DNA from: a virus
Length of the DNA: 64,000 nucleotides
Strand: one strand, 5' to 3'
Virus record (IMG/VR): IMGVR_UViG_3300044971_004534
Both the position numbers and the translations under genes were made by a program. Below, piece after piece: positions 4,529 through 64,000 of this stretch. Under the pieces are notes generated by a model, which was given only the letters and a program-made list of their open reading frames with translations, was not told the DNA's origin and did not search any database. Each line of letters opens with the position of its first letter. Positions within the stretch are counted from its first letter, which is position 1.

Positions 4529-4558
4529 TAGCTAGGTAAATATAGGGTTTTTTAAATC

Positions 4559-4595
4559 GCAACCCGCTCTCCGAAAGGAGGGCGGGTTGCTTTTT
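4559..4595 (+). terminator. Rho-independent terminator after the capsid gene
   Basis: GCAACCCGC (4559-4567) pairs perfectly with GCGGGTTGC (4582-4590). The stem extends through CTCC (4569-4572) and GGAG (4577-4580) around a GAAA tetraloop, followed by TTTTT (4591-4595). It lies 31 nt after the capsid stop codon. Confidence 0.9.
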
Positions 4596-4615
4596 ATGTA
4601 TTAATATATACTTCT

Positions 4616-20502: not shown

Positions 20503-20503
20503 T

Positions 20504-26864: not shown

Positions 26865-29800
26865 ATGGGTGATACCTATTCTAGTATTCTTAATCCAGAT
26901 TTAAGGCGAAGATTACGAGGCTTTTCAGCTTATTATCTTGGCGACTTGGTTCCACTGGGTTTTATTAAACCGTTTGAGGTTTTAAACTTAAGCGCTTCTC
27001 AAGAGCCATTGCCAAATTCTTATGAATTAAGCATTGATGGCTCTAATGTTCCTAATTCAGATCCGGTGACTCCAAAATATTTATTTAAATTTACTTCAAG
27101 TGAAGATGACTTAAAAGATCAAGATGGTCAGCCGTTGCAGCCTGATGAAAATGGAAAAATAGAAAAAGTATATGCAGTATATTTAGAATATGTGTGGCTT
27201 AGCAATACACGAGTTACGGATTCTCAGGGTCAGTATTCTATCGGAGGTTTTGGCATCCCGAGTAGTGGGCGTGTTATCTCAAAAAGAATACATGTAGTTA
27301 ATGATAAAAAATTTATTCCAGGCAATCAGGCAGTGTCTGGTGACGACTTGTATGTCATACCATCTGTTGAAGGGACAGGGATTGCTGGTGCAACGGCAAA
27401 AAAAGCTGTTAGCATTGAAGTTATCCCAGTATTTTTGGCTGATAAGGATAAGTATGCCGGTAAAATTTTGGGTCCATTTTTTGAGGAACCCAGATTTGGC
27501 GCAGCTAAAGTATCACTTTTGCCATCTAGAGCTTTGAGTTTGTGGCTTGGATTTGGTGGCGGTATAGACCTGCAAAGAGCGTTTGATCCAGGTGCGGCAG
27601 TTGAGGGATTTGCTGGTTTGGTTTTTGGTGCTGGATTGCTTGACCTACTTGCTGGCGCGACTGCTATCACATTGAGGATTACCTCTCCAGCTGTGTACAG
27701 GCCCTATACCATAAAAAACGGATATTCAATAGTTAATTCTTCCCAAACAATCTTTGATCAAGAAGTCACAATAACTTTTAATGATTTATTTGAAAGACAA
27801 GATGGTCAAGATGCTGGTTACAAAAAGAAGTTTATTGAGGGTGACAATTATGTACTAGTCAATAAGTCTTTAGGCGATAGTTTTGATTTTATATCTAATG
27901 TATTTGGTGTGTTTTTAAAGCCATTTGAATTTGAAGACTTGGAAAAAAGATATATAGGCAAAGGTCTCACTGATTCTACTGATCCTCGAGATGGAGTTTC
28001 GCAAACCAAATTTTTGTCTAAAGAGCCATGTGGTTTTGCTATCGTTAAAGATAAGATAATAACAAACATGTTTATGCGTCAGGTAAAAAAATTTAGAGGC
28101 CCAACAACCTCTATTCCAGAAGAGCAAATTCCTGGAGGTTCCGCACAAATTCAAATTTTTATACCAAAATCAAAAATATCACTAAATACAAGTTCTTTTC
28201 AACCACTTAAACTGTATGTAACTTATGAAATTGTAAAAGGTCCACAAATTAGACAGACAAATTCTTACAAACTTTTTGCAACTGCTGCTTCTGGTGTAGC
28301 TAATGTGGATGCTAAATCTTTTTATCAAAATCATGCTTTTGTTTATGATAAATTTTATGTAAGACCTGATGTCAAATACAATTTTGCAGAATCAGCAAAT
28401 AGATTTCCAATTATTGTCAATAACTTTGATTTTAGTGCCATAGCAAATTTGCGTGGCGTACCTGCTTTGTACGATTTTTCTGTCCCGCCAGAAGAATTTA
28501 AAGTTAGTCAAAATGTATTTAATGGATCAGACCCTGATGGAGATATTCCAAAAGTTACTGTCGGCACATATAGATTGGCAGCTAGAAGCGTTCAGGAAAG
28601 AAGTGACAATTTCATGCTTGCAGAAGGCATATTTGTTGCCGCCAATAACCTTGTACAAGATGGCACAAATTTGGGTGGAGGTATTGGCTATATAGATGGT
28701 GTAGGAAATTTTACTTTATTAATAAGTAAAAATGATATAGCTGACAAAGAATGGTGGCGCGACAATTTTGAAGCTCCTAACAATACTATTTTTGTTAATA
28801 GTTATCTAGATGATGGACCATCTATAATAGCAGTAAAATATGACAGGTCGTTGATTTCAAATAGTATGTTTACGGATGATGAAAAAATAGGATATGATTC
28901 TGTATTGGCAGATGCTTTAATGACTATCGAAAAGAAAAGTGATGGAGGATTTGGTGTAGGGATTTGTTTACTTGATTTTTTAAATGTTCAAAACTTTAAT
29001 CTTAAAAATGAAGTTTCTAGTTTTAAAAAATATGCATCTGAAATACAATCTGAAGAAGATAGCCAGTTATACTATGACTTATCTGAGGCTATATTCAGTG
29101 GTGTTGTTAATCCGAATTGGACTTTAAATATAATACAAATTTTACCACCCAGTTTGAGTTCAACTGGTCAAGAGACTGGTCGAGCCACAATAGTGGGAGA
29201 AAATTTTTGTTTTGATGTTTCTCCAATAGACATTAGTAGAAATGGCAGAGTGTTCTGGGAAGGAATGAGTGGCGTAAATGCCGCTTTGGGTGTTCAGCCA
29301 TATGAGCAGTTATGGATCAGGAGTAACGCTTATGATGTTAAGCTTGGCTTTGCTGCAGACTTAAAAAAATATATAGGATTATACGCGCAGTCTTATAACG
29401 GTAAGGTTAGAATATTTTCTGCCGATATGCCATCATTTGTTTTTAATAACTCTAATCCTGCTTTAGGTTTTGAGAATAACCAGGAAGTAATTGATGCTAA
29501 CAAGTCAGTTACTTCTTATAAATATCAAGACAGAAAATGGTTTGGTCTGCCTGTTGACAAAATGCCATTTCATCAATATGGTGGAGAGCTTGTGTCTAGT
29601 GAAGACTCTGGTTTTTATCAAGAGAACAAAGATGGTATTATTAATTATAAAGAATTGATATGGTCTTCTGGTGAAAGTATTGGGATTAAATATGAAACCC
29701 CAGCTGAAAATGGAGGGCAATTTGCATCTTTAACTTTTGATTCTGTTTACAGAGTAAGCTATATATCTATTAGCTTTAAGCCATTTGGAGATTCTAAAAG

Positions 29801-31541
29801 TAAAATTTCAAATGATAATTATTATTACAATATTGGCTTTGACGAGCCTCAGGGTGAAAGTTTTATAAAAAAAGAAGCAATTTCTTATGCTTATATGATG
29901 GGTGTTGGTGGAAGTAAAAACAATGGTCTATTATCAGAAGTCAACATTTATAACTGCGAATGTCAAAAAATGTATTTTTCAGGTCCATTTTTTGAAAAAT
30001 TTAAAAATGTAAAACCATTTTACATTAAGGTAAGAGTGTTTGAGGTAGACAACTATGACAAGTTTGTCTTTACTGCAAATGATTGTTTTCCTGCAATTGA
30101 TGGATATTCTCAGGGATATGTTGGGTTTTTAAATCTTAAAAATGGATCACCATCACTAGACGCATATATGACTGGAGATCACAATAGAAGATGGAAGTTA
30201 ATTAGAAACATTTTTCAATCTTTTGTTAATGAAAATATTTTTCAATGTGTTTTAAAGTCTGATCCACGAGGAAGTAAACTGTATTTTATGTTTTCTTTGA
30301 ATGGAAATTTATTGTGTAAACCTATTGATAGTTGGATGCTTTCAAAAACTAAATACTATGATCAGGGTATTGTGAGTAGTAATATATTTAATATAAGCAT
30401 TAGTACAGACAAATCAGTTATTGCCTTATCTCCTGTAGTCTATCACATTATACAGGGTCTTGATCAGTATTCTGAAAATCCTCAAGAATTTGACAATATC
30501 GCTAGACTTCAATCTGCTTATGTTGTACAGGCTAGATATACAGATAATGAATTTTTGTTAAAAGAAAATATTAATACTACTATATGTCAAAATATAAAAT
30601 TTAAAGGCGAATCTGAAAAGGCAAATCAATCATCTAGCTCAACAAGTAATAATCGTTCAATAATACAGATTGGGGATTATACTGTTAATATACCATCTTC
30701 TTCTTTTGGTTTATCAAAACTTTTTTATCCAAGAATAAATGTTCCTGCAATACCGATTATTGATGAAAACAATATAGATGATGATTGGGCTGTGAATCAG
30801 CCATATACTTTTGAAGTTATAGGAAATGGATCATTAGTAGCATTTTTATTAAAAGACGGATTTGTTCATATGAAGTGGAGTCAAAATGGACAAAATTGGA
30901 GTAACATTTTTAACATGAGCAGACTGTTTGGTTTTAGGCCCATTAAATGGGGAGTAAATGATCAAGATAGTTTTATTGACACAGAAAAAAATGAATACTT
31001 TCCTGGCTCGGCAGTTTCTATAGACAATATTTCTAGCTGCTATGATTTCCAATCTGGTAAGCTTACACTATTTTACATGATAGGCAACGCTATATTCGGT
31101 CAAAATTTTGATCTCTCTTCTTTTCAGGGGCTCAATAGCAGTAATAGTGTAGTCAAATATATGCAAACAAAAAATAATCCTAAGCATTCGCCCTACCATC
31201 CTTATTATGTAGTTGGAGAAATGCCATCAGGGATGGTAGAGGCCATAAGAGCAGGTAATAGTTTTGTTAATTTTGGCTTGATATCAGACGTAAATAGTCA
31301 AAGAATATCAGGTTTATCTCAGCTTGAAAAAAATATTGGAAGCAATGAGTCTATTATAAATTCATATTCTAATCTTAAAACCAACGGTAAGGCACCTGGT
31401 GCTTGTTACGTAGGTAATGACGTAATAAGGTTATATTATGAAGATGATAGTAATATTATAAGAGGCGTTACAATCACAAATAGTATTGTAAAGCCCGATC
31501 TTTTAACGATAAGTGATTCTGTTTTTTCGGAGCTTAATTAA
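26865..31541 (+). CDS. Giant distal tail / baseplate structural protein (1558 aa)
   Basis: Uninterrupted ORF starting 4 nt after the tape measure stop, where distal tail proteins are normally encoded. No specific domain recognised. Confidence 0.5.
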   Translation: MGDTYSSILNPDLRRRLRGFSAYYLGDLVPLGFIKPFEVLNLSASQEPLPNSYELSIDGSNVPNSDPVTPKYLFKFTSSEDDLKDQDGQPLQPDENGKIEKVYAVYLEYVWLSNTRVTDSQGQYSIGGFGIPSSGRVISKRIHVVNDKKFIPGNQAVSGDDLYVIPSVEGTGIAGATAKKAVSIEVIPVFLADKDKYAGKILGPFFEEPRFGAAKVSLLPSRALSLWLGFGGGIDLQRAFDPGAAVEGFAGLVFGAGLLDLLAGATAITLRITSPAVYRPYTIKNGYSIVNSSQTIFDQEVTITFNDLFERQDGQDAGYKKKFIEGDNYVLVNKSLGDSFDFISNVFGVFLKPFEFEDLEKRYIGKGLTDSTDPRDGVSQTKFLSKEPCGFAIVKDKIITNMFMRQVKKFRGPTTSIPEEQIPGGSAQIQIFIPKSKISLNTSSFQPLKLYVTYEIVKGPQIRQTNSYKLFATAASGVANVDAKSFYQNHAFVYDKFYVRPDVKYNFAESANRFPIIVNNFDFSAIANLRGVPALYDFSVPPEEFKVSQNVFNGSDPDGDIPKVTVGTYRLAARSVQERSDNFMLAEGIFVAANNLVQDGTNLGGGIGYIDGVGNFTLLISKNDIADKEWWRDNFEAPNNTIFVNSYLDDGPSIIAVKYDRSLISNSMFTDDEKIGYDSVLADALMTIEKKSDGGFGVGICLLDFLNVQNFNLKNEVSSFKKYASEIQSEEDSQLYYDLSEAIFSGVVNPNWTLNIIQILPPSLSSTGQETGRATIVGENFCFDVSPIDISRNGRVFWEGMSGVNAALGVQPYEQLWIRSNAYDVKLGFAADLKKYIGLYAQSYNGKVRIFSADMPSFVFNNSNPALGFENNQEVIDANKSVTSYKYQDRKWFGLPVDKMPFHQYGGELVSSEDSGFYQENKDGIINYKELIWSSGESIGIKYETPAENGGQFASLTFDSVYRVSYISISFKPFGDSKSKISNDNYYYNIGFDEPQGESFIKKEAISYAYMMGVGGSKNNGLLSEVNIYNCECQKMYFSGPFFEKFKNVKPFYIKVRVFEVDNYDKFVFTANDCFPAIDGYSQGYVGFLNLKNGSPSLDAYMTGDHNRRWKLIRNIFQSFVNENIFQCVLKSDPRGSKLYFMFSLNGNLLCKPIDSWMLSKTKYYDQGIVSSNIFNISISTDKSVIALSPVVYHIIQGLDQYSENPQEFDNIARLQSAYVVQARYTDNEFLLKENINTTICQNIKFKGESEKANQSSSSTSNNRSIIQIGDYTVNIPSSSFGLSKLFYPRINVPAIPIIDENNIDDDWAVNQPYTFEVIGNGSLVAFLLKDGFVHMKWSQNGQNWSNIFNMSRLFGFRPIKWGVNDQDSFIDTEKNEYFPGSAVSIDNISSCYDFQSGKLTLFYMIGNAIFGQNFDLSSFQGLNSSNSVVKYMQTKNNPKHSPYHPYYVVGEMPSGMVEAIRAGNSFVNFGLISDVNSQRISGLSQLEKNIGSNESIINSYSNLKTNGKAPGACYVGNDVIRLYYEDDSNIIRGVTITNSIVKPDLLTISDSVFSELN

Positions 31542-34500
31542 TGGTTGATGCTACTAACGGATGGGACAGTTCTGGCTACGTTGTCCCGCATAGCGCTGGT
31601 GTTGTGCGGATGGAAGTTACTATATTTCCAAATACAGTTCCTATTAGAAGTAGAATAAGACAGCATTATGCATATCAGTTTAACTCTTCTACTTTGGGTC
31701 AGGTTCAAACTAATGATATGAAAATTTTGGAAACAGTTGATGATGGAAATGCGTCAATAGGCATAACTTTCAAAAAGAATACAAATTATTTTCATACTGT
31801 ATGTGGTTTTTTGTTTACTGGTGAGGTTGCTGGAGTCAGCTCAGATGCAATTGAGTCTGCAAGTGGTAACGTTACAAAAGATCCATCTTATAACCCTAGA
31901 CTATCTAATGGCCGTTGGTTTTCAGACGATGGCGCTGATAGCTGTTATCCTACTGCTGCTGATTTGGTGAAAATGGAGCACCAAATATTTATTTTATCAG
32001 GATCTTTGTTTAGTGCAGAGTATAGCACTTTGCAAGATGTGTTTAAAAAGAACAGTAATCTTACTATAAATAATATAGGTTTATTTTTGGCTTCTGCTCA
32101 AGGCAAATTTTTTGCTTCTTTAGTTCCTCAAGCAAGAACTTGGATGAAATCAGAATCTATTACTACCACTATAAAAAGACTTAAAAATAAAAATCCTAAT
32201 GACTATTGGATGTCTATAGCAGATTCTGAGATGATTAATGGAGATCCGAATGGAGCAGATTTTCATGATTATTCTCAAGCAAGTAACTTCTCTAACGACG
32301 AAGGTTTGTCCAATATGAATTCTTCATCTATTCTTGATGCTCTTGAATTTGAAGAAGTAGATCAGGTTACTCAGCAGTTGCTGGGATATGTGGGAATTGA
32401 GCAAGTTATTAGTTCTAATATTGTTGAGGAGATGGCCAAGGCAGATATAGATTTTGCACAATCTCCCACAAGAGGTTTGAAGTTAAATAAAAACAATGCT
32501 TCTTTAGACACAGAAAGAGTTCCTGCGTATGTTGGTCTTCCCCCTGGTGTTCATGCAAGTTTTTATAAAGCAAATCCTATATTCCCTGGTGAAGATTTTA
32601 CTTTTAGATTTCATAAAACTGCACAAAGTCATTCTAAAGCTATTGTTGAAGATCCGCAAGAAGAATTTAGATATGCTATGCAAAATAGTTATAAATATAT
32701 AGATTCTGGGTGTACTTCTGCTGACAATGAAGACAACGGAACTTTAACTCCTAATTTTGGTGTTTGTCGCCCAACTTTTATCCAACAAAAAAATGGTAAA
32801 TTTAACGTTAACAGAATAGTTAGTAAAAATGCTAAAGATTATTACTTAGCAGACCAAAGTTATGTGGTTTTAGAAATAGATGGTGGTATAGAAAATAGAT
32901 ATTTTTTAATCATACCTGAGCGTAGTTCTGTTGTCATGTTGGAGGTAACTGCTGACGCAGAAATATGTGATGTTGTTGATAATGACGGTAATTTGGCTAA
33001 ATTTTTAGATTTTACAGGCATGCGTCATTCAAGATTGTTATTTGATTTTGGCATTAGCGGCTCAAGCTTGTTAAATCAAGAAAATTTTTCAATACATTTT
33101 CAGCATTTCCGTGGTTTATTAAAAGTAACTTTTGAATCTGGAACAACTCAGTCATTCACTGTTTCTAGACAGCGTTTTACTAAAGATGTTTATGGCTTAC
33201 GTGACAACATATTTCTTGTTAATGTTCTTGACGATAAAAATCCATTTAAAAACAATGGTACATTTTTAGATCATCCAGCATTAAAAGATAAATTAAATAG
33301 TGAAAAATTTCCTATTAAGCTATCTGGAAATGTTATTGTTCACATGGGTCACGTAAGAATGGCTTTTAATTTTTCACCAATTACATACCCAAACACAACG
33401 AGCTTAAATATATCATATCCTGTTGGTATTACTAACTTGGAGGGCAATGATGGCGCTGTCAATATATTACTTCGCTCAGCTGGAGGGTATGAGGAGGGCA
33501 GCTCTAGGAATGTTTCTTCAAACCTTATTGACAAGTATCTAATTAGAAATGAAAACGGCAAGGTAGTGCCTGGACAATCAAAGCCTCACTACACTCACTG
33601 TAGTAGTAGAATATCTGAAATTATTGGCGGATCTTTAGTTAACGTGGATTCTAGTCTTTTTTCTGCCAACCAAAAAATGTGCATTACTGGACCTCATCTG
33701 TATGGTGACAAAAATTGGCCGCCCTATTTAGGTCAATACGCTGATCCAAGCTCTATTGTTACATCTTATAGAATAACTGATAGAAAAGAATTTGTAAATA
33801 GAATACACCCTTCAGTAACCTTAAAATCTGGATCGATTACTCTTAAAGGCAGTAATGGTTCTTTATGGCTTTTGGAGGGAGCTACGCGTCCAATATGCGA
33901 TGGATTTAGCGTATTTGTTCCCGAGGGATCAAAGCCTCAATGGAAAGGTGTTGCTGCTGATGTTACCGTTAATGTGATGGAGTACAGCGATTCTTGGGAC
34001 AGATCGGATAGATCATTTATGCAGCATAGTGGTAACATAAAATTTTATTTAAATAAAGCTGATGCTCTTCCACTGATAGAAAACATAACTTCTGTTCAGA
34101 CAGACAAAGGCTCTTTGGTTGATGGGGTCAGGAAAGCAGAAAGAATAGATGTTGATGGCATGGCTCGCTATGGTGAATATCAGGGTGACCAAACTCCATT
34201 GCTTGCAAGTTTGCAAGATAAATATTTTTATATTGAAGTAAGAGCATGGAGAGATCCTTATAAAGTTAACACTTTTGGTGCTGGTTTAAACGCACAAAAT
34301 GTTAATAATGGACCTGCAAATATAACGGAAGCTTTTTATGCCACTCATGAAAATGAAGTTCCAGATGAAGAGAACACTTTATTATTTACTGGTTTTTGCA
34401 GGAGCAGCTCTTATGCAATTAAGGACACTCATATTGAGATGAGCTGTAAGCTTGAAGATTACTATAGTATTTTAAATAGTATGACATGGTTAAATGCTCC

Positions 34501-35449: not shown

Positions 35450-35450
35450 A

Positions 35451-35666
35451 ATGGACAACATTCCTACACTTGGTAAACAATTAGCAGATAATATAAATTC
35501 ATTAATTGAGAAAAAGATAAATGAGAATTACACTAAGTTATATCATCAGCAAAATGTATTTGAAGGCGGCTTATATGGTGGAGCTAGAAGCTTGACAGAT
35601 GTCTCTACTAGTGAGGAAGAAGCTTATGGTCGCATTGGGATTAAAAGCGGAATTGTAGGAGCGTAA
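35451..35666 (+). CDS. Hypothetical small tail-module protein
   Basis: 71-aa ORF with GGAGGAGG upstream. Its stop overlaps the next start (TAATG). Confidence 0.55.
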   Translation: MDNIPTLGKQLADNINSLIEKKINENYTKLYHQQNVFEGGLYGGARSLTDVSTSEEEAYGRIGIKSGIVGA

Positions 35667-40415: not shown

Positions 40416-40416
40416 G

Positions 40417-51788: not shown

Positions 51789-51791
51789 AAT

Positions 51792-56918: not shown

Positions 56919-57985
56919 GCACACTAAGTATAGAAAAATATTTGCATTTTAACTTTGATCAGTTTCCGGTTGTGGAAACTGGTACTTTAGATAATCTAAT
57001 TTTCAATGGCAATGGTAGTGTGGATATCGTTCCAGGTGTATTTTCTTCTGGTCTTTTATTAAATGATGATGGGTATTTTTCAATGCCTATATCATCTGTT
57101 AGATATCAAAATTTGCGTTCAGAATTTTCTGTAGGATTTTGGTTAAACTCTGTTTCTTTATCTGATAAAATTTATGATGACGTTGTAATAGTGCCATCTA
57201 TGCCTATATTGTCTGTTGGTAATGCTACGTTATTGAATGGTTCTTACGTTTTTTCTGATGGTCTATTTATGTTATATGAAAAATCTGTCTTTGCCAATTA
57301 TAATAAAATGTATTTGATTATAATGACATCTGGTGGTGAAAAGCTAGAATTTGAAAGTGAAATATACGAAACTGGTATCTTTAATCATTTTATGTTTTCT
57401 GTAAATTCAGAAACAAGTCAAATAAAACTCTATATTAATGGAGTAGAAAGTATACTATCTTCTAATACAGCCGTTCTTCCTCCATCCTTTGGTCTTTCTT
57501 CAGTTCCAGAGCTGTATATTAATAAAAATATAGAAGGTGATAATAGAAGTTTAGAAAAAAATAAGGGTGTAATAGATGATCTGTTTATAATAGCTGATGC
57601 AATTATTGAAAATTATAAAATATCTAAAATAATAGCTGACGGATTTTCATCTTATATTGCAGAAGTTTCTGGCAATATATCAGAAAGAGTTTTTGATGCA
57701 AAAATTAGTTTTTTGCAAAAAACGTCTGTAGCTCCTCCAATATCTGCCGTAGACATGTCTAGTGGAGATATTGTGGCTGGAACTCAAGATGGTGTCGTTT
57801 TAAAAGGAGACTCGGGGTATTGGAATAAGAAATACAGTTTAACGAATCAGCAATCCTTAAGTGATTTTACTGTTGTTTATTCTACTCAAAACAGCTCTGG
57901 TTCTAATGAAAATTCTGCAAATGATGGTAAGATAATATCTGGAGAGGGTCTTATCTTATTTAAAAATGGTATTATAATAAACTAA
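56915..57985 (+). CDS. LamG/concanavalin-A-like jelly-roll protein (356 aa), tail module
   Basis: It has an ATGA overlap with the upstream gene. LamG-like landmarks are FNGNGSVDIVPGVFSSGLLLNDDGYFSMP...EFSVGFWLN...HFMFSVNSETSQIKLYINGV...GVIDDLFIIADAI. Confidence 0.5.
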   Translation: MSTLSIEKYLHFNFDQFPVVETGTLDNLIFNGNGSVDIVPGVFSSGLLLNDDGYFSMPISSVRYQNLRSEFSVGFWLNSVSLSDKIYDDVVIVPSMPILSVGNATLLNGSYVFSDGLFMLYEKSVFANYNKMYLIIMTSGGEKLEFESEIYETGIFNHFMFSVNSETSQIKLYINGVESILSSNTAVLPPSFGLSSVPELYINKNIEGDNRSLEKNKGVIDDLFIIADAIIENYKISKIIADGFSSYIAEVSGNISERVFDAKISFLQKTSVAPPISAVDMSSGDIVAGTQDGVVLKGDSGYWNKKYSLTNQQSLSDFTVVYSTQNSSGSNENSANDGKIISGEGLILFKNGIIIN

Positions 57986-57986
57986 A

Positions 57987-60900
57987 ATGATAGAATCTAT
58001 TAACGTAAAAATAAATGGAAAAGAGTTTTTGGGAAATCCGCTAAAGGTTTTGCCTAAAGGTTTTATTGTATCTTGGCAGTTTGGTCCTTCGCAGGTATCT
58101 CAAACAAATTTTGAAATAAGAATAGGGGCAGATGCTTTTGGATTAGGTACAGACTTGTTTGTTGGTAGTATATTTGAATATTCTGGCATAAACAAAACTC
58201 GACAAGATTACGCATTTTTTCCAAGCGCTATTCTTTCAAGAAGTTCTGAACTTTATGGTCAGCTAAGAATCGTTGATCAATTTGGTAATAATTCTTTTTG
58301 GAAAACATTTTCAGTTTATGTTAATGACGTTCCTCACCTAATAGATTCTTATTTTTTGCCTGGATATGGAATTGAATCTGGAATATCTCTAGGTGTTGTC
58401 AAGCCTAGTGATGATGTATTGGTTAAAACTAGATGGTTTCAAAATGGTAAACTGCAATCTTATTTAGATGATTCTTATTCAGTTCCATCTAGAAATATAG
58501 AATATGGAGATGTTTGGAGTGCTCAAGTTATTCCTTATAATGAGTTAGAGTCTGGATTAACTTTTGACGTAAGCCCTGTTTCTATTCTACCACCAATTAT
58601 TTCAGTTAGTAATATATCTATTATACCTTCAAATCCAAATCCAGATGATATATTTGAAGTATCTTATAGCTTATATAAAAATAATTTATTAGAAAATATA
58701 GGTGATGAATCTATAGTCAGATGGTATGTGAATGATATAGAAGTCTCTGGAAATGTTAATTCAAAATTTGCAAGGTTAAATGTAAAACCTAAAGATCATG
58801 TTTATGCCAGAATAGATTCTAATTGGAGTGGTTTTGCTGGTACAAGCTTGGTTAGTAATCCTGTAATTGTTGGAGAATACAATCTGCAATTATCAAATTG
58901 CGTTATTAACGGAGTTTCTGATAAAAATTTTGTTTCTTATGACGCAGTGAATATTCTTTGGAATGTTGCTGATAATATTAAAGAAAAAATATCGCAATAC
59001 AATATAAAGTTAGGTCATTCTGAGGGTGGATCTAATCTTCTGAATACGCATGTTGGCCCTAATGTATTTAGCTTTTTTATACCACCATCTGCTCTTAAAA
59101 AAGGGATGGACTATTATGTTTCAGTTGGTCCAGTAGACGTAAATGGTAATGCTGGAAAATATGAGACCGTATATTTTAAGACTTTTGGTAATACTTGGGG
59201 TGACAATGTATCTGCCGACAATGGGTATACTATTTTCATCAAATTAAAATGTGAGATTGCTAGTGGAGAGAGTTCTCCAGAAGATGTTCTTTCGCTTAAC
59301 GTTTCTGACGGACTGCAGTCATATGTGGTAGATTTTCATAAAAGTTTCGTCAGAATTAATATAGATACAAATACAAAAGTTAAAGCTGATGTTGATAATT
59401 CTATATTTAGAGAGTATATATTGTCAGTAAAAAACAATGACATTAATTTGTTCGTTGATGGCAATTTAATAGCCAAATATAGTCAACAAACTCAGCGTTC
59501 AGGTGAAAAGTATTTAAATTTGATACCACGCGGAGGTAAGGGCGACTTAAAGTCTACAATTTCTTCAATTAGAATAAGTGTAAGTAATCCATATCATTTA
59601 GATTCTACTGGCATATCTGAGTTAACAAGTTTTTCTGAAGTAATTGATTTACCGAATATCGTAATAAATGATGTTGAGTCAACCCCGGGCGGTGTTTTAC
59701 TAGCTGCTAAAAATATTTCTGATGAATATTCAAGAATATATAAATATGACTCTTCTAAAAACAATTTTAAATTTGATGTAGAAAGTTTGTCAAGCTCAGT
59801 ATTTACTGTTAGTCATGTGGATGTTTCTCCTGGGTATGAAGCTTTTACTGTGTCTAGTAATAAGGGCGTTTCTTTGTTCAAAGGCGACCCGGTTGCTGGA
59901 TGGGATTCTTCTGTGGAATTTAGATCTTTAAATGACTTATACAACAATAAGTGGAGTGTTATTTCTTCTTCAGGAGACTCTGGAATATCAATTAATTCTG
60001 ATGGGTTGTTAATATCAAATAGTTTTGCTACAGTTGGTAGAACTTCAACAATAAAAAGATCTAATGAATTACAATATCCTGCCGTTGCTGTTAAAAGCCT
60101 GTTCTTGAGTAATTTTAGTTTTTCTGTATCTAATAATATTATGTCTATCTTGAACAATGGAGATACATCTCTTCTTCAACACTCAATAGACATTACACAG
60201 TTTACTTCTATAGGCAATTTGTTTGCTTATATAAAAGATCTTTTTGCTACTGCTGATAATGGATCGTACATCAAAGATTTTTTCTCATTTTATATCTTGA
60301 ATGGAGCAAATGACTTATCGACTAGTTTACTTTCAGATTATAATTCTGCATCTCAACAAATAGAGTATATATTTTATGTTGATAATGTTGCTGACTCTAT
60401 AGATCCGTATGCAGATGCTTCTCAAACTTCTTTTTCTGGTGGTAGAGCATTTATATCTCACGACAGTCCAGGGTCTCCATGGTTTGATAGTGCAAATAGT
60501 GAATCTGGATATTCTATAGAGTTAGATTGCAAAGTTGATTCGTTAGAAGACAGTTTACGTCCGGTTAGTTTTTCTGACAAAAACTTCTTGGGTATGTATA
60601 TAAATGATGGAGAGTATGAGCAAGAAATATCTTTGAGCAGTAGCGCAATTAGAATCCCTAAAATTGGGAAAAACATACCAATCAATTTGTCTGAATTTAC
60701 AAAATTAAGATTTAATAGCTTAGACGGTAAAGTAAATTTGTGGAAAAAATCATCGGCAGATAGAGACTATGTATTATTAGACAGTTTTATTTTAAATTCT
60801 GTATCAAACATATCTAGAAATGTCATTCAACACAAGGTGTTTAATAGTGATTCAAAAACATACATCATGTGGGTGGAAGAAGACGGTGATTATAGCGTCA

Positions 60901-63900
60901 TAAGATACTCGGAATCAGAAGATAATGGGAAATGGTCAACTCCGTACTCAGTACCGATATATAGATCTTCTATAAAATCATTTGATTTTGTAGTTGACAA
61001 TGCTGGCGTCATTTATGTGTCTTATGAAACATATGCCTATGATCACTCAGATATTATTGTTCTTGCAAAAAATCAAGTTGGCTGGAGTACCCAGTTTAAC
61101 ATAAGTAATGACAGAGGATCTTCTGTACAGCCAGTGATGGCTTTAGATGAAAATGGTGGGGTTCACATCATATGGTCTGACTCAAGGGCAGGTACTTATG
61201 AAATAATGCACGCTTATTTTGACGTGTTTACTAGAACCTGGATTGGCTCTGGGCAAGATGCTCGCATAATTAGCTCAAGCGGATATGCAGCATATAATCC
61301 TGCTGTGTCTAGTAGAATGAATAGTCTTTATGTGACATGGACAGAATTAAGTCCAAATGGAAATAGTCAAATTAAAATAGCTAAATATAACATAGCCTTA
61401 CAATCATGGATGAGTGAAAATAATTTAGAAATAGGAAAATTAGTAAGCGATCCAGGTATTTCAAAATCAGACTTTTCAGATATTGTGGCAGATAAAGATG
61501 GAAACATACATATTGTTTACCATGATATTGTAAATGATAAATATAAGATATTTTACAGACAGTGTTCTCAAGATTTAAATTTTTATAATCTTCCAACTCC
61601 CATTGTTGCTGTTGATGAAGAATCAGATTCTTTTGAGCCTAATTTGTCTATAGTCGATGCTTCTGGAGATTTAATAGTTAATTGGAAAAAGTCAAATGAA
61701 TATGCTCCCTCTAATGTTCGTTCTGGTACATTTGATTTTACAGACCCTTATGCTCCAGCATTGTTGCTACCTCCCAGATCTACAACATCGGCTACAAACG
61801 GTTATTACTTTGCAAGATGGAGTAGGGTATATAGGTCTTGGCTATCTTCTGGAAGCTCTATAGTTAATGATTCTGGAGCTGTAGAGGGTGGATATGATTC
61901 TAGGCTTGATATTGGAAAATTGGGAGGCGACAGTAGTGTTACTGCTCCAAAAAGAATAGTTTCCAATAATAACATAAGTGTTTTGTTATACGATGATTTT
62001 TCAGATGCAAATACAAGAGTTTATGTTTATGAGTTAGACAGTATGCTTTCTTCTTCTATATTAAGTTTTAATAATGAAGATCCTTACGATTACTCTCTGA
62101 TTGCCATCAGTGATGCTGGAAGTAAGAAAAGTTTACTTATAGGTGATGCTAGTAACTATGTTTCTGCTGGAATTTACATCAAGTCAATAAATTACTCAAT
62201 ATCTGGAGTAAGGCGACCTTTCTCTTATAGAAAGATTGGATATTTGACGCATGTCATGCCATATGACCCCATTATCAAGTCTTTTGTTTCTGATGACGGA
62301 GATACTTGGATGATAGGTCAAAATGGCTTATACTATTATGATTATTTAGGAGATCAAGTTTTAAATTCTTGGGATTCTACATTGTGGGATAATAACAATT
62401 TAAATTCTATTATTGGAAATAATTCTTATTCCATACACGATGCCTTTATTGACCCATTAGGTAATATGTTTGTATTTGTTTTGATTGGTTCTGACAAAAA
62501 GCTTTTAGTTTCAAATGATCACTTTAGATGGTTTGAGGTTTCCATCACCGACTTTACATTCGATGTAGATAAAAATATAAAAATTGCTTTTAATAATTTT
62601 GGAGGCATGGTAGTAAGTAAAATTGGTAAAACGTGTTTAGTAAAAAACTATATTTTAGAAATCAGAAATCAAATACCAAACAAGACTACTTCATCTGGTC
62701 AGGATGGAAACACTCAGCGTCCAAAATTGCAGCTTGTATGCGGTGCTTCCTCCAGTAGTCCATCTCTTTCTAATATTTCAAATATTAATGATATTGCTTT
62801 AGATGATAGTGAAAATATACTAATATCAACTAACTTAGGATTGTTCTTTGGTAAAATTAGTAATATCACTTATTACGGTATTGAAGATGGCTTGCCAGGC
62901 AGTGTAATTAAGTCTGTTCATGTAAAAGACGCATATACTAGAATATGTACTTTTGAAAATAAAATATCATATATGAATGGTTCTGTCTTTGAAGAAATAC
63001 CACTTATATCAAATTATCCTATTTCTACATATTTGGGAATAAGTTCATCTAATCAGACTAGTCAAAGATTTGATTCTGGTAAGTTAATTAATTCTAAAGA
63101 GTATGGTAATTATATACTAGTATCTGGTCAAAATGGTTTAGTTATTATTCTTAATAGTGATCCTGTGCTGATGAGAAAGCTACCTGTAAGTGTTTTCTTT
63201 GGATCTGAATTACTAGATGTGATATCTCCTGGAGATGCCAGATCGATAGTTAATAAAGAACTAAAGTTTAATTTACCAGAAAATATATTAAATGATGCAA
63301 ACGTAAATAAATTTGTTGTTGAAGTATTTATAAATGGCAATAAAGTCAATCGTGGTTATGAATTTAGTGCAAAAGAACAAGTTATAAACTTTTTAACTTC
63401 GTTGTTACCAAACGACAAGGTTACATTTAATTTAAGATCAGACATTATATTAGAAAATGACTTTTCTCAAAATGGAGCAGAAAAATCTGCATTTGGAATA
63501 GAAACTAGAAACGTTAAGAGTATACTTTTTAATAATAATCAATCATACGCAGTAGTTCAGGGAACTTCTGATTATATCGCAGTGAGTGACAGCTCAATAT
63601 CGCTCCCATATGATGAAGTCATCTTGGATAGGACGCCACCTAATGGACGTGTAAAGTTTATTGCTCAAACTGGTCCAGATTCTATATACGTAGGTATAGA
63701 TCCTCCGAACAGTGACACTCCTTACGATGCAGTAAGTGGTATAGCATCTATGGTAATTTCTAATTATGATAATTTTACTTCTGACGGCGTGACTCCAATA
63801 GATCCTATCCCTTTTAGGCCAACTATAGGTCATAACTTAATATCAGCATTAAGCAACAACGCTGAAATATTTGAAACAGATACAGACTATTTCAGTAAAC

Positions 63901-64000
63901 TTTTTACGTTTACTCGACCTAGCTCAGTCCAAAAACTGTATGTTGCTACTTCTTCTCCTATTAAAATATATGAACGCGCTACCTCTGGAGATTTTTTAGA
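57987..64000 (+). CDS. Giant tail fibre/adhesin-like protein, 3'-partial (>2004 aa; open to the window end, absent from the supplied ORF track)
   Basis: The ATG at 57987 lies 2 nt after the upstream stop (57983-57985). I translated the frame by eye to nt 64000, checking 61680-64000 codon by codon, and found no stop. It has FN3/Ig-like modules near the N-terminus and a LamG-like segment (~59200-59600: ...YILSVKNNDINLFVDGNLIAKY...). A regularly spaced propeller-blade motif lies at ~60960-61700, and an Ig-like motif (VILDRTPPNGRVKF...YDAVSGIASMVISN) at ~63620-63770. Confidence 0.8.
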   Translation, partial: MIESINVKINGKEFLGNPLKVLPKGFIVSWQFGPSQVSQTNFEIRIGADAFGLGTDLFVGSIFEYSGINKTRQDYAFFPSAILSRSSELYGQLRIVDQFGNNSFWKTFSVYVNDVPHLIDSYFLPGYGIESGISLGVVKPSDDVLVKTRWFQNGKLQSYLDDSYSVPSRNIEYGDVWSAQVIPYNELESGLTFDVSPVSILPPIISVSNISIIPSNPNPDDIFEVSYSLYKNNLLENIGDESIVRWYVNDIEVSGNVNSKFARLNVKPKDHVYARIDSNWSGFAGTSLVSNPVIVGEYNLQLSNCVINGVSDKNFVSYDAVNILWNVADNIKEKISQYNIKLGHSEGGSNLLNTHVGPNVFSFFIPPSALKKGMDYYVSVGPVDVNGNAGKYETVYFKTFGNTWGDNVSADNGYTIFIKLKCEIASGESSPEDVLSLNVSDGLQSYVVDFHKSFVRINIDTNTKVKADVDNSIFREYILSVKNNDINLFVDGNLIAKYSQQTQRSGEKYLNLIPRGGKGDLKSTISSIRISVSNPYHLDSTGISELTSFSEVIDLPNIVINDVESTPGGVLLAAKNISDEYSRIYKYDSSKNNFKFDVESLSSSVFTVSHVDVSPGYEAFTVSSNKGVSLFKGDPVAGWDSSVEFRSLNDLYNNKWSVISSSGDSGISINSDGLLISNSFATVGRTSTIKRSNELQYPAVAVKSLFLSNFSFSVSNNIMSILNNGDTSLLQHSIDITQFTSIGNLFAYIKDLFATADNGSYIKDFFSFYILNGANDLSTSLLSDYNSASQQIEYIFYVDNVADSIDPYADASQTSFSGGRAFISHDSPGSPWFDSANSESGYSIELDCKVDSLEDSLRPVSFSDKNFLGMYINDGEYEQEISLSSSAIRIPKIGKNIPINLSEFTKLRFNSLDGKVNLWKKSSADRDYVLLDSFILNSVSNISRNVIQHKVFNSDSKTYIMWVEEDGDYSVIRYSESEDNGKWSTPYSVPIYRSSIKSFDFVVDNAGVIYVSYETYAYDHSDIIVLAKNQVGWSTQFNISNDRGSSVQPVMALDENGGVHIIWSDSRAGTYEIMHAYFDVFTRTWIGSGQDARIISSSGYAAYNPAVSSRMNSLYVTWTELSPNGNSQIKIAKYNIALQSWMSENNLEIGKLVSDPGISKSDFSDIVADKDGNIHIVYHDIVNDKYKIFYRQCSQDLNFYNLPTPIVAVDEESDSFEPNLSIVDASGDLIVNWKKSNEYAPSNVRSGTFDFTDPYAPALLLPPRSTTSATNGYYFARWSRVYRSWLSSGSSIVNDSGAVEGGYDSRLDIGKLGGDSSVTAPKRIVSNNNISVLLYDDFSDANTRVYVYELDSMLSSSILSFNNEDPYDYSLIAISDAGSKKSLLIGDASNYVSAGIYIKSINYSISGVRRPFSYRKIGYLTHVMPYDPIIKSFVSDDGDTWMIGQNGLYYYDYLGDQVLNSWDSTLWDNNNLNSIIGNNSYSIHDAFIDPLGNMFVFVLIGSDKKLLVSNDHFRWFEVSITDFTFDVDKNIKIAFNNFGGMVVSKIGKTCLVKNYILEIRNQIPNKTTSSGQDGNTQRPKLQLVCGASSSSPSLSNISNINDIALDDSENILISTNLGLFFGKISNITYYGIEDGLPGSVIKSVHVKDAYTRICTFENKISYMNGSVFEEIPLISNYPISTYLGISSSNQTSQRFDSGKLINSKEYGNYILVSGQNGLVIILNSDPVLMRKLPVSVFFGSELLDVISPGDARSIVNKELKFNLPENILNDANVNKFVVEVFINGNKVNRGYEFSAKEQVINFLTSLLPNDKVTFNLRSDIILENDFSQNGAEKSAFGIETRNVKSILFNNNQSYAVVQGTSDYIAVSDSSISLPYDEVILDRTPPNGRVKFIAQTGPDSIYVGIDPPNSDTPYDAVSGIASMVISNYDNFTSDGVTPIDPIPFRPTIGHNLISALSNNAEIFETDTDYFSKLFTFTRPSSVQKLYVATSSPIKIYERATSGDFL

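What the first reader, a model, noticed from the sequence alone, without database searches (positions are those of the whole stretch)
26865..64000. More than 37 kb of gap-free giant ORFs downstream of the tape measure gene
From 26865 to the window end, ten consecutive + strand ORFs encode at least 12,392 aa by my sum: 1558+1302+71+1221+383+3288+501+1708+356+>2004. Their junctions span 0-4 nt or overlap. Most siphovirus-type distal tail modules are a few kb. Here one gene alone is 9.9 kb and the array is still open at the window edge. The domain mix is more like bacterial giant adhesins than typical receptor-binding proteins: RCC1-like, NHL-like, LamG, FN3/Ig-like, dockerin-like and a recurrent propeller blade. 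This suggests an elaborate, possibly multivalent host-recognition apparatus.
Basis: partly seen in the sequence, partly recalled or inferred. Interest (0 to 1): 0.65.

Follow-up and report, generated by a model that had tools for sequence, protein, structure and literature searches.

The report
Giant tail-appendage gene block, huge phage
An uncultured aquatic phage with a genome of about 300 kb devotes a run of abutting, mostly giant and mostly unrecognisable genes after its tail tape-measure gene (37 kb in the window, about 98 kb in a close relative) to what is most likely an oversized tail-tip and fibre apparatus, which no one has yet seen in a virion.

Summary
Ten abutting + strand ORFs fill 26865-64000. 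They are intact in more than 20 independent assemblies and under purifying selection (dN/dS 0.04-0.18).

The block is larger than reported. The last ORF is 2807 aa and an 1848-aa gene follows it. In a relative about 75% identical in DNA, the same-strand run continues through genes of 5596, 2587 and 3965 aa. The composite is 22 genes, 32,582 aa and about 98 kb.

The order TMP - g1 - g2 - small ORF - g4 - GT4 glycosyltransferase - g6 recurs in distant relatives, one from a TARA scaffold. Downstream genes change by fusion, fission and domain swapping.

Recognisable parts are few:
- an RCC1 propeller in g6
- an NHL blade and CBM-like sandwiches in g4
- three dockerin-like modules in g8
- weak LamG and FN3/J-like signals

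No Dit, Tal, sheath or baseplate family was detected.

g4 and g11 share an N-terminal module. g8 holds a 2-kb strain-level divergence hot spot.

Best reading: an enlarged distal-tail and fibre module. Virion location and receptor binding are inferred, and the siphovirus label is unproven.

The parts
22082..23191 (+). Tail tube protein (369 aa). It anchors the tail-module context upstream of the array.
   Evidence: Pfam Phage_tube_2 at 5.1e-12, 46.4 bits against a cutoff of 27. phrog_290 tail at 1.6e-10. 85% identical in relative L007.
24264..26861 (+). Tape-measure-like protein (865 aa), assigned by position and composition only.
   Evidence: It follows the tube gene and two small ORFs. It is rich in Ala, Glu, Lys and Gln and has no Cys. 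No Pfam or PHROG hit. Homologues vary widely in length: 934 aa in L007, 1339 aa in L021, 2453 aa at the same position in L023.
26865..31541 (+). g1, 1558 aa. First gene after the TMP. Unknown fold, narrow family.
   Evidence: Only 8 clusters, all about 1530-1570 aa. No Pfam, PHROG or PDB hit, even with a family profile. 41.5% identical in L007. Patchy similarity in L023. None detectable to the 1299-aa gene at the same position in L021.
31541..35449 (+). g2, 1302 aa. Its C-terminal part of about 350 aa (roughly aa 945-1300) is the most widely conserved piece of the module. Candidate core or hub component; fold unknown.
   Evidence: An exhaustive search with aa 900-1302 found 238 representative clusters (191 at E<=1e-10). 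The domain lies almost always at the C-terminus of proteins of 1000-1400 aa. 0 of 36 members have any Pfam hit. No PDB sequence hit. The AF2 model failed, pLDDT 40.
35451..35666 (+). g3, 71 aa. A small ORF conserved in position between g2 and g4.
   Evidence: A small ORF occupies the same position in L021 (not called there; about 72 aa in my own translation), L022, L023 and L024 (87, 68 and 71 aa as called). Its sequence is poorly conserved.
35666..39331 (+). g4, 1221 aa. The best-conserved large protein. It has an N-terminal module shared with g11, an H-x-H and 'LDAxKIKxGxF..ERIP' motif region, CBM-like beta-sandwiches and an NHL-type propeller. Likely a baseplate-peripheral or fibre protein.
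   Evidence: 35 clusters at 25-100% identity, 1055-1281 aa. NHL blade near aa 715-760: profile against PDB, 6d69 at 3e-10. AF2 pLDDT 71.9. Foldseek hits to a phi812 baseplate chain, CBM11/16/22, ConA-like lectins, minor tail proteins, J and tail fibres. N-terminal aa 23-87 match g11 aa 19-78.
39264..40415 (+). g5, a GT4-family glycosyltransferase (383 or 375 aa). It follows g4 immediately in four of the five relatives examined around g4 (not L022).
   Evidence: Pfam Glycos_transf_1 at 7e-10, 39.1 bits against a cutoff of 26.4. phrog_2170 at 1.1e-26. Same position in L021, L023 and L024; the relative contig behind L016 also starts inside its g5 homologue. In L022 a 160-aa ORF with no Pfam hit follows g4. 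Paralogue of the GT at 7483-8841.
40417..50283 (+). g6, 3288 aa, 49 Cys. A modular giant with conserved N- and C-terminal parts and an exchangeable central insert.
   Evidence: Colinear homologues at 76% and 56% identity. Split into 1033 + 1011 aa genes in L021. Split into 2691 + 414 aa in L023. 3293 aa with Laminin_B in place of RCC1 in the TARA scaffold L024. aa 2591-2746 resemble g10 aa 2542-2729.
45784..46596 (+). RCC1/BLIP-II-like beta-propeller inside g6 (about aa 1790-2060).
   Evidence: Pfam RCC1_2 at 5.1e-18. PDB BLIP-II 1jtd_B at 1.6e-10 and ACR4 at 4.5e-8. Internal blade repeats.
50283..51788 (+). g7, 501 aa. The most slowly evolving small member. It has a partial match to the lambda-J-type central fibre family.
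   Evidence: phrog_31 'central tail fiber J' at 9.5e-7, aa 19-213 against profile positions 886-1057 of 1565. dN/dS 0.04. 63-83% identical in relatives. Homologue in L021.
51792..56918 (+). g8, 1708 aa, 25 Cys. Carries three dockerin-like Ca-binding modules and the strain-level divergence hot spot.
   Evidence: Pfam Dockerin_1 at aa 38-81, 3.9e-7. Two internal modules flanked by poly-Ser, visible in the alignment. Lengths of 1708, 1711, 1712 and 1777 aa among strains and relatives.
53800..55800 (+). Divergence hot spot within g8 (about aa 650-1350).
   Evidence: Up to 89 differences per 300 nt against L009, with 0-5 in the flanks. dS 1.14 and dN 0.156 inside, against dS 0.04-0.19 outside.
55110..55499 (+). 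Tandem 195-nt duplication encoding a poly-Ser and dockerin-like cassette.
   Evidence: Two copies, 91% identical. The protein repeat aa 1106-1169 and 1171-1234 matches at 5e-36.
56915..57985 (+). g9, 356 aa, 14% Ser. Possible LamG/ConA-like jellyroll, below threshold.
   Evidence: Laminin_G_3 at 0.0017, 18.9 bits against a cutoff of 27.6. 74% identical in L016.
57987..64000 (+). g10, the first 2004 of 2807 aa. It runs off the window and is followed by g11 (1848 aa).
   Evidence: Full length and the next gene come from the window's own contig and seven other assemblies. No Pfam hit above threshold and no PDB hit. dN/dS 0.075.

Best explanation
The array is the front part of a single, tightly packed late-gene block. 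The block most likely encodes the distal tail (tail-tip or baseplate) complex and an unusually large set of fibre or appendage proteins. It belongs to an uncultured clade of huge aquatic phages with contigs of 280-406 kb.

A conserved core comes first: TMP, g1, g2 with a widely conserved C-terminal domain, a small ORF, g4, and a GT4 glycosyltransferase. I infer that this core builds the structure at the end of the tail tube and the first ring of appendages.

The giants that follow are accessory appendages made of beta-rich modules: g6, g8, g10, g11, and in the relative genes of up to 5596 aa. Their modules include RCC1 and NHL propellers, CBM/LamG-type sandwiches, FN3/J-like domains, and dockerin-like Ca-binding modules on poly-Ser linkers.

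These appendages would attach through shared N-terminal modules. Possibly they also attach through dockerin-type contacts. They would bind surface glycans or proteins of the host or of particles. They change by gene fusion and fission, domain insertion and allele replacement.

The embedded GT4 enzyme probably glycosylates virion proteins.

Shown here: gene integrity, selection, synteny, the split between core and periphery, and the listed domains.

Inferred: virion location, attachment mode, receptor binding and glycosylation.
For: Position and packing:
- The block follows tube, two small ORFs and a TMP-like gene, with junctions of -4 to +3 nt.

Real genes:
- Intact in independent assemblies.
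- dN/dS 0.04-0.18.

Conserved order:
- The order g1-g2-small ORF-g4-GT-g6 holds at only 30-38% g4 identity, including a TARA scaffold.
- The most distant relative, L022, keeps only g2-small ORF-g4 and then non-structural genes.

Breadth of the core:
- The g2 C-terminal domain occurs in 238 representative clusters.
- The g4 family has 35 clusters.

Tail-like structure of g4:
- AF2 pLDDT 71.9.
- Foldseek matches a phi812 baseplate chain, CBMs, ConA-like lectins of tailed viruses, minor tail proteins, J proteins and tail fibres.
- NHL blade at 3e-10.

Fibre-type logic:
- g4 and g11 share an N-terminal module that is conserved across the g4 family.
- r1231, r797 and r568 are paralogues with shared N-termini and different C-termini.
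- g7 and g11 hit the central tail fibre J family.

Binding-type domains:
- RCC1.
- Dockerin, three copies.
- LamG.

Variable periphery:
- g6 is split or fused differently in L021 and L023, and its insert is swapped in L024.
- g8 hot spot.

Extent:
- The block runs to about 98 kb in the relative.
Against: - There is no direct evidence that any of these proteins is in the virion.
- No Dit, Tal/gp27, gp25, Baseplate_J, sheath or spike family was detected in g1-g4 by Pfam, PHROGs, or profile-to-PDB searches.
- The g2 model failed.
- Foldseek matches for g4 are at domain level, with TM-scores of 0.06-0.13 over the whole chain. They show common beta-sandwich and propeller folds, not a specific tail family.
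- Everything beyond g11 residue 525 was seen only in a relative about 75% identical in DNA, not in the window's own genome.
- RCC1, dockerin and LamG domains also occur in non-virion proteins.
Confidence: 0.68

Rival explanations
1. The proteins are virion appendages, but many of the giants are not at the tail tip. They would be capsid, neck or tail-shaft fibres ('hairy' or 'curly' appendages). Such appendages mediate loose adhesion to hosts, particles or mucus-like matrices, and not specific receptor binding.
For: - Jumbo phages with such appendages exist: phAPEC6 hairy fibres on sheath and capsid with many RCC1-like proteins (PMC7247149), and 0305phi8-36 curly fibres (PMC2147016).
- The LamG domain of the minus-strand gene beside the capsid genes resembles the LamG end of r1231 in the array.
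- About 98 kb of coding is far more than a tail tip would seem to need.
Against: - All the genes lie in one block that starts right after the TMP.
- The shared N-terminal module of g4 and g11 could equally fit either attachment site.
- No data here locate any of the proteins.
Confidence: 0.2
2. Some of the giants are ejected or internal proteins: envelope-spanning conduit, cell-wall-degrading or host-takeover proteins delivered with the DNA. They would not be external binders.
For: - Very large virion-internal proteins are known, for example the 3398-aa N4-like vRNAP (abstract of PMC11445570).
- Most of the sequence has no recognisable domain, so enzymatic parts cannot be excluded.
Against: - The composition is rich in Ser, Asn, Ile, Val and Gly and is beta-rich.
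- The only recognisable modules are extracellular-type binding or propeller domains.
- No polymerase, lysin or peptidase domain was detected.
Confidence: 0.07
3. The block is not structural. It would encode secreted or cell-surface giant adhesin-like proteins and a glycosyltransferase. These would remodel the infected cell's surface, for example for aggregation, superinfection exclusion or a cellulosome-like assembly.
For: - The domain vocabulary (dockerin, RCC1, LamG, poly-Ser linkers, GT4) resembles bacterial surface proteins.
- The relative has a run of small ORFs right after the block that look like glycosyltransferases by eye (untested).
Against: - The block lies inside the tail module, directly abutting the TMP.
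- g7, g11 and g4 show tail-type matches.
- No g4 relative was found in 185,579 prokaryotic species genomes, though that scan was limited by its search patterns.
- No signal peptides are evident by eye at the N-termini (not formally tested).
Confidence: 0.04
4. The long ORFs are an artefact: an assembly chimera, sequencing error or chance open frames.
For: None found.
Against: - Identical or near-identical ORFs occur in independent assemblies from different samples.
- dN/dS is far below 1.
- Colinear full-length homologues exist at 40-83% identity.
- The other two frames have 161 and 280 stops, against none in the reading frame.
Confidence: 0.01

Closest known systems
Distal tail complexes of long-tailed phages (lambda H-M-L-K-I-J; T5 pb2-pb9-pb3-pb4; Dit-Tal-RBP modules). 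From my own knowledge.
   Same: The genes follow the tape-measure gene directly, on one strand, tightly packed. g7 and g11 match part of the lambda-J-type central fibre family. There is a conserved core followed by variable binders.
   Different: The size differs: a few kb to about 10 kb in those phages, against at least 37 kb in the window and about 98 kb in the relative. No Dit, Tal or gp27 signature was detectable in g1 or g2. A glycosyltransferase is embedded in the module.
Bacillus thuringiensis phage 0305phi8-36 virion module (PMC2147016)
   Same: It is a large phage with TMP followed by hub and baseplate genes, then FN3-rich baseplate or fibre genes. It has extra appendages (curly fibres), paralogous domain families, and large modular indels between relatives.
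   Different: 0305phi8-36 is a myovirus with recognisable gp27, gpV and gpJ homologues. Here none is recognisable. Individual genes here reach 3288 aa in the window and 5596 aa in the relative. There is no sequence similarity: no INPHARED tblastn hit for g2, g4 or the tube.
Multi-fibre and 'hairy' jumbo myoviruses: Klebsiella phage phiKp24 hyperbranched fibres, Rak2-like phAPEC6 (PMC13282480, PMC7247149)
   Same: Many different appendage proteins are encoded by one phage. RCC1-like proteins are common in the phAPEC6 genome. The proposed role is broad or multivalent host interaction.
   Different: Those phages are cultured, have contractile tails, and use many moderate-sized fibres. Here there are fewer but giant genes in a single unbroken block. 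There is no homology apart from the RCC1 repeat itself, and the tail type is unknown.
Bacterial giant adhesins and cellulosome components (dockerin, poly-Ser linkers, CBM/LamG, RCC1). From my own knowledge.
   Same: The domain vocabulary is shared, and so is the linker-module-linker layout of the dockerin cassettes.
   Different: The genes are phage-encoded and lie inside a tail module. No cohesin partner was detected. No secretion signal is evident by eye. No g4 relatives were found in prokaryotic species genomes.
Moraphages, aquatic 200-307 kb phages (PMC12619734)
   Same: They are uncultured phages of about 300 kb from mainly aquatic (mostly freshwater) metagenomes. They have several glycosyltransferase orthogroups and an unrecognisable TMP.
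   Different: Moraphage core genes include T4-type sheath, gp19 tube, gp25 and gp6. None of these was detected in the window. The samples that carry this phage are not in their genome list. The capsid protein here is closest to phage G, at 53%.

Membership tests
Siphovirus Dit-Tal distal tail module | A Dit (distal tail protein) fold encoded directly after the TMP. | tested here: inconclusive
   g1 has no Pfam, PHROG or PDB hit, even with an 8-sequence profile. No structure model was made for g1.
Siphovirus Dit-Tal distal tail module | Tal with a gp27-like N-terminal hub domain. | tested here: inconclusive
   g2 has no Pfam or PHROG hit. Profiles of 12 and 36 sequences gave no PDB hit. The AF2 model was unusable, pLDDT 40. 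The conserved domain lies at the C-terminus, not the N-terminus.
Non-contractile (siphovirus-type) tail | No sheath gene between the tail-completion and tube genes or elsewhere in the genome. | tested here: inconclusive
   No sheath family hit in any window ORF scanned, nor in the 7 kb upstream. The 401-aa ORF before the tube is unassigned. The rest of the genome was not seen. The capsid protein's cultured relatives are myoviruses.
Myovirus baseplate (gp25/GPW, Baseplate_J/gp6, gp27/gpD, spike) | Recognisable wedge and hub families downstream of the TMP. | tested here: not met
   No such Pfam or PHROG family was found in any of the 22 block genes.
Lambda J / central tail fibre (phrog_31) | A match across the J hub domains, not only the FN3-like stretch. 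| tested here: not met
   g7 and g11 match only profile positions 886-1057 and 948-1057 of 1565.
RCC1 / BLIP-II beta-propeller | Repeated RCC1 blades above the Pfam gathering score. | tested here: met
   g6 scores 64.8 bits on RCC1_2 against a cutoff of 22, with 2-3 matched stretches reported and further blades seen as internal repeats. BLIP-II at 1.6e-10.
NHL-repeat beta-propeller | NHL blade motif, repeated to form a propeller. | tested here: inconclusive
   One clear blade in the g4 family profile aligns to all six blades of Thin and TRIM71 (3e-10). The AF2 model is beta-rich there with pLDDT of 80-92. I did not count blades in the model. Pfam found no NHL in the single sequence.
Dockerin type I | A duplicated Ca-binding F-hand segment above the Pfam cutoff. 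| tested here: met
   g8 aa 38-81 scores 30.6 bits against a cutoff of 22.9. Two further modules have paired DxDxDG loops. The same cassette occurs in r5597 and r2599 of the relative.
Dockerin type I | A cohesin partner. | tested here: not met
   No cohesin family hit in any scanned protein. Structure-level detection was not possible.
GT4 glycosyltransferase | Glycos_transf_1 domain above the cutoff. | tested here: met
   g5 scores 39.1 bits against a cutoff of 26.4, and phrog_2170 at 1.1e-26. Its substrate is not testable with these tools.
LamG / ConA-like lectin | Laminin_G_3 above the cutoff. | tested here: not met
   g9 scores 18.9 bits against a cutoff of 27.6. The feature is met in the relative's r1231 (47.6 bits) and in the minus-strand gene at 6188-7435 (62.9 bits).
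DGR-diversified tail fibre | A short variable region paired with a template repeat, and adenine-specific substitutions. | tested here: not met
   No template-like repeat in 24000-64000. The g8 hot spot spans 2 kb and has dS 1.14 with dN/dS 0.14. That pattern is allele replacement, not targeted mutagenesis. A reverse transcriptase elsewhere in the genome was not searched for.
Moraphages (PMC12619734) | T4-type core genes (sheath, gp19, gp25, gp6 VOGs) and membership of their genome set. | tested here: not met
   None of these families was detected in the window. The sample identifiers are absent from their Table 1. No whole-genome phylogeny was possible.

The most novel reading that the evidence does not exclude
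The block of about 98 kb may build a modular, cellulosome-like appendage system on the virion. Giant scaffold proteins would carry poly-Ser-linked dockerin modules that plug into as yet unrecognised cohesin-like domains of other block proteins. The Ser-rich linkers would be O-glycosylated by the GT4 enzyme that is conserved in the block. This would resemble the way GT4 enzymes glycosylate bacterial serine-rich adhesins. The result would be an exchangeable, multivalent glycan- and protein-binding 'net' around the tail. If so, roughly a third of the genome would be spent on adsorption.
Probability: 0.1. Interest if true: 0.85.

Novelty: new variant of a known kind. Interest (0 to 1): 0.62.

Why it matters
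If these genes are virion components, this clade spends about a third of a genome of roughly 300 kb on its adsorption apparatus. To my knowledge that is more than any described phage. It would also bear on why huge phages are huge: here the extra DNA would be structural, not metabolic or replicative.

The block offers three further things:
- A set of large protein families that are under purifying selection and completely uncharacterised. g1, g2 and g4 have no Pfam model. The g2 C-terminal domain alone has 238 representative clusters.
- A clear case of giant genes growing by fusion and domain insertion.
- A candidate host-range determinant that can be followed in lake metagenome time series, namely the g8 hot spot.

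Dockerin cassettes and a conserved in-block glycosyltransferase point to assembly or modification chemistry not yet documented for phage tails.

Tried and rejected
1. Megablast of 20-24 kb pieces, and tblastn of the tube, g2 and g4 against 50,697 deposited phage genomes, found nothing. Only the capsid protein hit: phage G at 53%. The phage G region around its capsid gene has no comparable array.
2. AF2 of g2 (aa 103-1302, 12-sequence alignment) gave pLDDT 40. The Foldseek run on it returned coronavirus spikes at TM 0.07. I discarded this as meaningless.
3. Profile-to-PDB searches for the g1 and g2 families gave nothing. phmmer of g1, g2, g4 and g10 against PDB also gave nothing.
4. Plain blastp among the giants showed almost no paralogy. 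Windowed phmmer was needed to see the shared modules.
5. It is not a motif shared across all genes.
6. Scans of JGI metagenome contigs for the relative's 5596-aa and 568-aa genes found nothing. Scans of GTDB species genomes for g11 and the g4 family also found nothing. These scans depend on exact peptide patterns, so absence is weak evidence.
7. DGR diversification of g8 was considered and rejected.
8. Moraphage membership was considered and not supported.
9. The 401-aa ORF before the tube looked like a GT-B enzyme by eye. It shows no significant similarity to the two GT4 genes or to any PDB sequence, so it stays unassigned. It is therefore neither confirmed nor excluded as a sheath.
10. Literature searches for a described equivalent (jumbo, siphovirus, giant, tail fibre, RCC1, giant proteins) found none.

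Full report
**1.

The ORF list and my own translation reproduce the ten + strand ORFs, their lengths and the 12,392-aa sum. The junctions run from a 4-nt overlap to a 3-nt gap. The exception is the glycosyltransferase ORF, whose first ATG lies 68 nt inside g4. Public gene calls use a start 24 nt later, giving 375 aa.

Over 57960-64000 the reading frame has no stop after the seventh codon. The other two + frames have 161 and 280 stops.

The window is identical over 17,086 nt to NCBI contig JBFDSL010005901.1, which is 179,655 bp. Window position 1 corresponds to record position 32,000.

The same genes occur in independent ENA, JGI, Logan and NCBI assemblies at 95.6-100% DNA identity, with the same or nearly the same ORF lengths. 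Exact copies of the window's proteins lie on contigs of 280,008, 281,172, 301,112 and 406,100 bp. This is therefore a huge phage.

dN/dS for g6-g10 is 0.04-0.18, both against a strain 96% identical in DNA and against a relative about 75% identical. Sequencing error, frameshift and chance are excluded.

**2. Genomic context**

GC content is 32-36% across the array. It is 46-48% over the first 4.6 kb, which hold the end of a 1923-aa acidic low-complexity gene, a decoration-like gene and the major capsid protein.

The capsid protein matches phrog_2522 at 1e-63. It is 53% identical to gp27 of Bacillus phage G.

The genes upstream of the array, in order:
- PhoH
- an unassigned 863-aa gene
- a volactin-family actin-like gene
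- weak Mu-gp36-like and SPP1-gp17-like neck or tail-completion candidates
- an unassigned 401-aa gene
- a Phage_tube_2 tube protein at 22082-23191
- two small ORFs
- an 865-aa Ala/Glu/Lys/Gln-rich protein with no family hit

I accept that last protein as the tape measure for two reasons. Its position fits. Its homologues also vary in length as tape measures do: 934 aa in L007, 1339 aa in L021, and a 2453-aa gene at the same position in L023.

No sheath family was detected anywhere in the window or in the 7 kb before it. A non-contractile tail is therefore plausible but not proven. The cultured relatives of the capsid protein are myoviruses.

**3. The block is much longer than the window shows**

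On the window's own contig, g10 is 2807 aa and is followed at once by an 1848-aa gene, g11.

I walked along a relative, IMGVR_UViG_3300042326_002445. It is 223,646 bp, with g6-g10 67-83% identical in protein and perfectly colinear. After g11 (1849 aa there) come + strand genes of 211, 540, 302, 1244, 1231, 797, 568, 5596, 2587, 497 and 3965 aa; all are contiguous except for a gap of about 90 nt before the 5596-aa gene. The run ends at contig position 84,878. Four small ORFs follow that look like glycosyltransferases by eye.

Joining the window's g1-g10 to the relative's continuation gives 22 genes, 32,582 aa and 97.7 kb. The part beyond g11 residue 525 was not seen in the window's own genome.

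**4. Core and periphery**

g1 has only 8 clusters and g2 has 11, all full length. g4 is broader, with 35 clusters at 25-100% identity and lengths of 1055-1281 aa.

I looked up the neighbourhoods of distant g4 homologues:
- **L023** (180,554-bp JGI contig) and **L024** (a TARA scaffold): g4 is about 36% identical. The order is g1 - g2 - small ORF - g4 - GT4 - g6.
- **L021** (208,507-bp contig): g4 is about 30% identical. The order is TMP, a 1299-aa gene with no detectable similarity to g1, g2, a small ORF, g4, GT4, a 300-aa gene, then two genes of 1033 and 1011 aa, then g7. The 1033-aa and 1011-aa genes match the N-terminal and C-terminal parts of g6.
- **L023** also splits g6, into 2691 + 414 aa.
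- **L024** has a 3293-aa g6 with Laminin_B where the window has RCC1.
- **L022**, the most distant locus: only an 873-aa g2 homologue, an 87-aa ORF and g4 are present, followed by ClpB and other non-structural genes.

An exhaustive search with the C-terminal 403 aa of g2 found 238 representative clusters. The domain lies almost always at the C-terminus of proteins of 1000-1400 aa. None of 36 sampled members has any Pfam hit, and a 36-member profile finds nothing in the PDB.

So g2 (C-terminal domain), the small ORF and g4 form an old core. The GT4 gene follows g4 directly in L021, L023 and L024, and a homologue lies at the start of the close relative's contig. It is absent at that position in L022. 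The giants after it are lineage-specific elaborations that change by fusion, fission and domain insertion.

**5. What the proteins are made of**

Pfam, PHROGs and PDB-sequence searches leave more than 90% of the residues unassigned.

Firm assignments:
- g5 is a GT4 glycosyltransferase. It is a paralogue of the GT at 7483-8841.
- g6 has an RCC1/BLIP-II-type propeller at about aa 1790-2060.
- g8 has a dockerin at aa 38-81. It also has two internal dockerin-like modules, each with paired DxDxDG loops and each flanked by poly-Ser. A 195-nt tandem duplication, 91% identical, encodes them.
- The g4 family profile contains an NHL blade that aligns to all six blades of Thin and TRIM71 (3e-10).

Weaker signals:
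- g9 LamG, below threshold.
- g7 and g11 against a stretch of about 110-170 positions of the lambda-J-type family.
- g11 FN3, below threshold.

The AF2 model of g4 (35-sequence alignment) has a mean pLDDT of 71.9 and is good from about residue 380. Foldseek places it nearest to the following:
- a baseplate chain of Staphylococcus phage phi812
- CBM11, CBM16 and CBM22 modules
- propellers
- among viral models: ConA-like lectins of haloarchaeal tailed viruses, Arthrobacter phage minor tail proteins, J proteins and tail fibres

These are domain-level matches. TM-scores normalised over the whole g4 model are 0.06-0.13; normalised by target length they reach about 0.6 for single CBM domains. They fit a tail protein built from sugar-binding sandwiches and a propeller, but they do not place g4 in a named family.

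**6. Signs of fibre-type organisation**

g4 residues 23-87 match g11 residues 19-78. The motif is conserved in g4 homologues down to the most distant one: T..[FY].L.[FY]F...D......RF..ID.QL.GL..[IV]FG.G[IV][IV].G. Different proteins sharing an N-terminal module is the usual pattern for fibres that dock onto the same kind of site.

In the relative, r1231, r797 and r568 are paralogues with shared N-terminal and middle parts and different C-termini. One of these C-termini is a LamG domain similar to the minus-strand LamG gene at 6188-7435.

RCC1 repeats recur in r2599. Cassettes of poly-Ser and dockerin recur in r5597 and r2599, with Ser runs of up to 41 residues.

g6 aa 2591-2746 resemble g10 aa 2542-2729.

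**7. A strain-level hot spot**

Among strains that differ by 0-2% elsewhere, window 53,800-55,800 (g8 aa about 650-1350) differs by up to 30%. Inside it dS is 1.14 and dN/dS is 0.14. In the flanks dS is 0.04-0.19.

This is the signature of recombinational allele replacement, not of relaxed or targeted mutation. No template-repeat pair is present.

A locally swapped segment in an otherwise clonal background is what one expects of a host-range or surface-contact determinant. That reading remains an inference.

**8. Interpretation**

The best-supported reading is an enlarged distal-tail and appendage module. It has a conserved core that assembles at the end of the tube. A large, evolvable periphery of beta-rich binding proteins surrounds that core.

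The GT4 gene's position directly after g4 in most relatives suggests that block proteins are glycosylated. Virion glycosylation is known in mycobacteriophages (cited in PMC12619734).

Rival readings differ mainly in where the proteins sit or act: capsid or shaft 'hairs', ejected proteins, or non-virion surface proteins. They cannot be excluded without proteomics or imaging.

The artefact reading is excluded.

**9. Comparison with known systems**

The gene-order logic matches lambda- and T5-type tail tips. It matches especially phage 0305phi8-36, where TMP, hub and baseplate genes are followed by FN3-rich appendage genes with paralogous domains and modular indels (PMC2147016).

The idea of many appendages matches phiKp24 and the hairy Rak2-like phages (PMC13282480, PMC7247149).

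None of these shares sequence with this block. None, to my knowledge, has a comparable unbroken run of giant genes.

The recently described moraphages have a similar habitat and size but carry T4-type tail genes, and this phage's samples are not in their list.

I found no paper describing this block.

**10. Verdict**

The kind of thing (phage tail-distal and fibre genes) is known. Four features make it a new variant worth following up:
- its scale
- the uncharacterised core families
- the dockerin cassettes
- the embedded glycosyltransferase

Interest is 0.62. Confidence that it is a virion tail-associated module is about 0.7. Confidence that it works as a multivalent host-recognition apparatus is lower, about 0.5.

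Noticed in passing
window 1-4600: Three head genes have 46-48% GC, against 32-36% in the rest of the window. They are the end of a 1923-aa acidic low-complexity gene, a decoration-like gene and the major capsid protein. The capsid protein is 53% identical to Bacillus phage G gp27, while the tube, g2 and g4 have no hit in any deposited phage. The phage G paper notes a similar handful of structural genes with at least 40% GC in a genome below 30% GC.
   Followed up: partly
window 17569-18624: An actin-like protein of the volactin family (PF25216, 3e-56, 191.7 bits). The family was defined in Haloferax. Here it is encoded among neck and tail genes of a phage.
   Followed up: no
window 6188-7435 (minus strand): This is the only large minus-strand gene. 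It is a LamG-domain protein (62.9 bits) that matches a PHROG annotated as virion structural. Its LamG domain resembles the C-terminus of a 1231-aa gene about 60 kb further along the block in the relative.
   Followed up: partly
window 7483-8841 and 39264-40415; L028 17670-21444: Two paralogous GT4 glycosyltransferases lie within the structural region. In the relative, four small ORFs directly after the last giant look like further glycosyltransferases by eye.
   Followed up: partly
window 10100-10954: A subtilase (Peptidase_S8, 2.3e-20) lies between the head and neck genes. It could be a prohead or virion-processing protease of an unusual type.
   Followed up: no
window 4616-6184: A CCA-adding enzyme / poly(A) polymerase family gene with an HD domain (precomputed Pfam PolyA_pol, PolyA_pol_RNAbd and HD). 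No tRNA gene is present in the window.
   Followed up: partly
L029 1436-3718 (7 kb upstream of the window): The portal candidate (760 aa, weak Portal_Mu) also carries DUF559 and MTES_1575 hits. This suggests an endonuclease-type insertion in or fusion to the portal gene.
   Followed up: no
window 20444-21649: A conserved 401-aa ORF lies directly upstream of the tube gene, where a sheath gene would be in a myovirus. It has no Pfam, PHROG or PDB match. Its identity decides whether the tail is contractile.
   Followed up: partly
L026 242-17032 (relative contig 46,877-63,667): A single ORF of 5596 aa with 86 Cys, internal repeated modules and three poly-Ser runs of 36-41 residues. To my knowledge it would be among the longest phage genes if confirmed in other assemblies. 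A pattern-based scan of JGI metagenomes did not find a second copy.
   Followed up: partly
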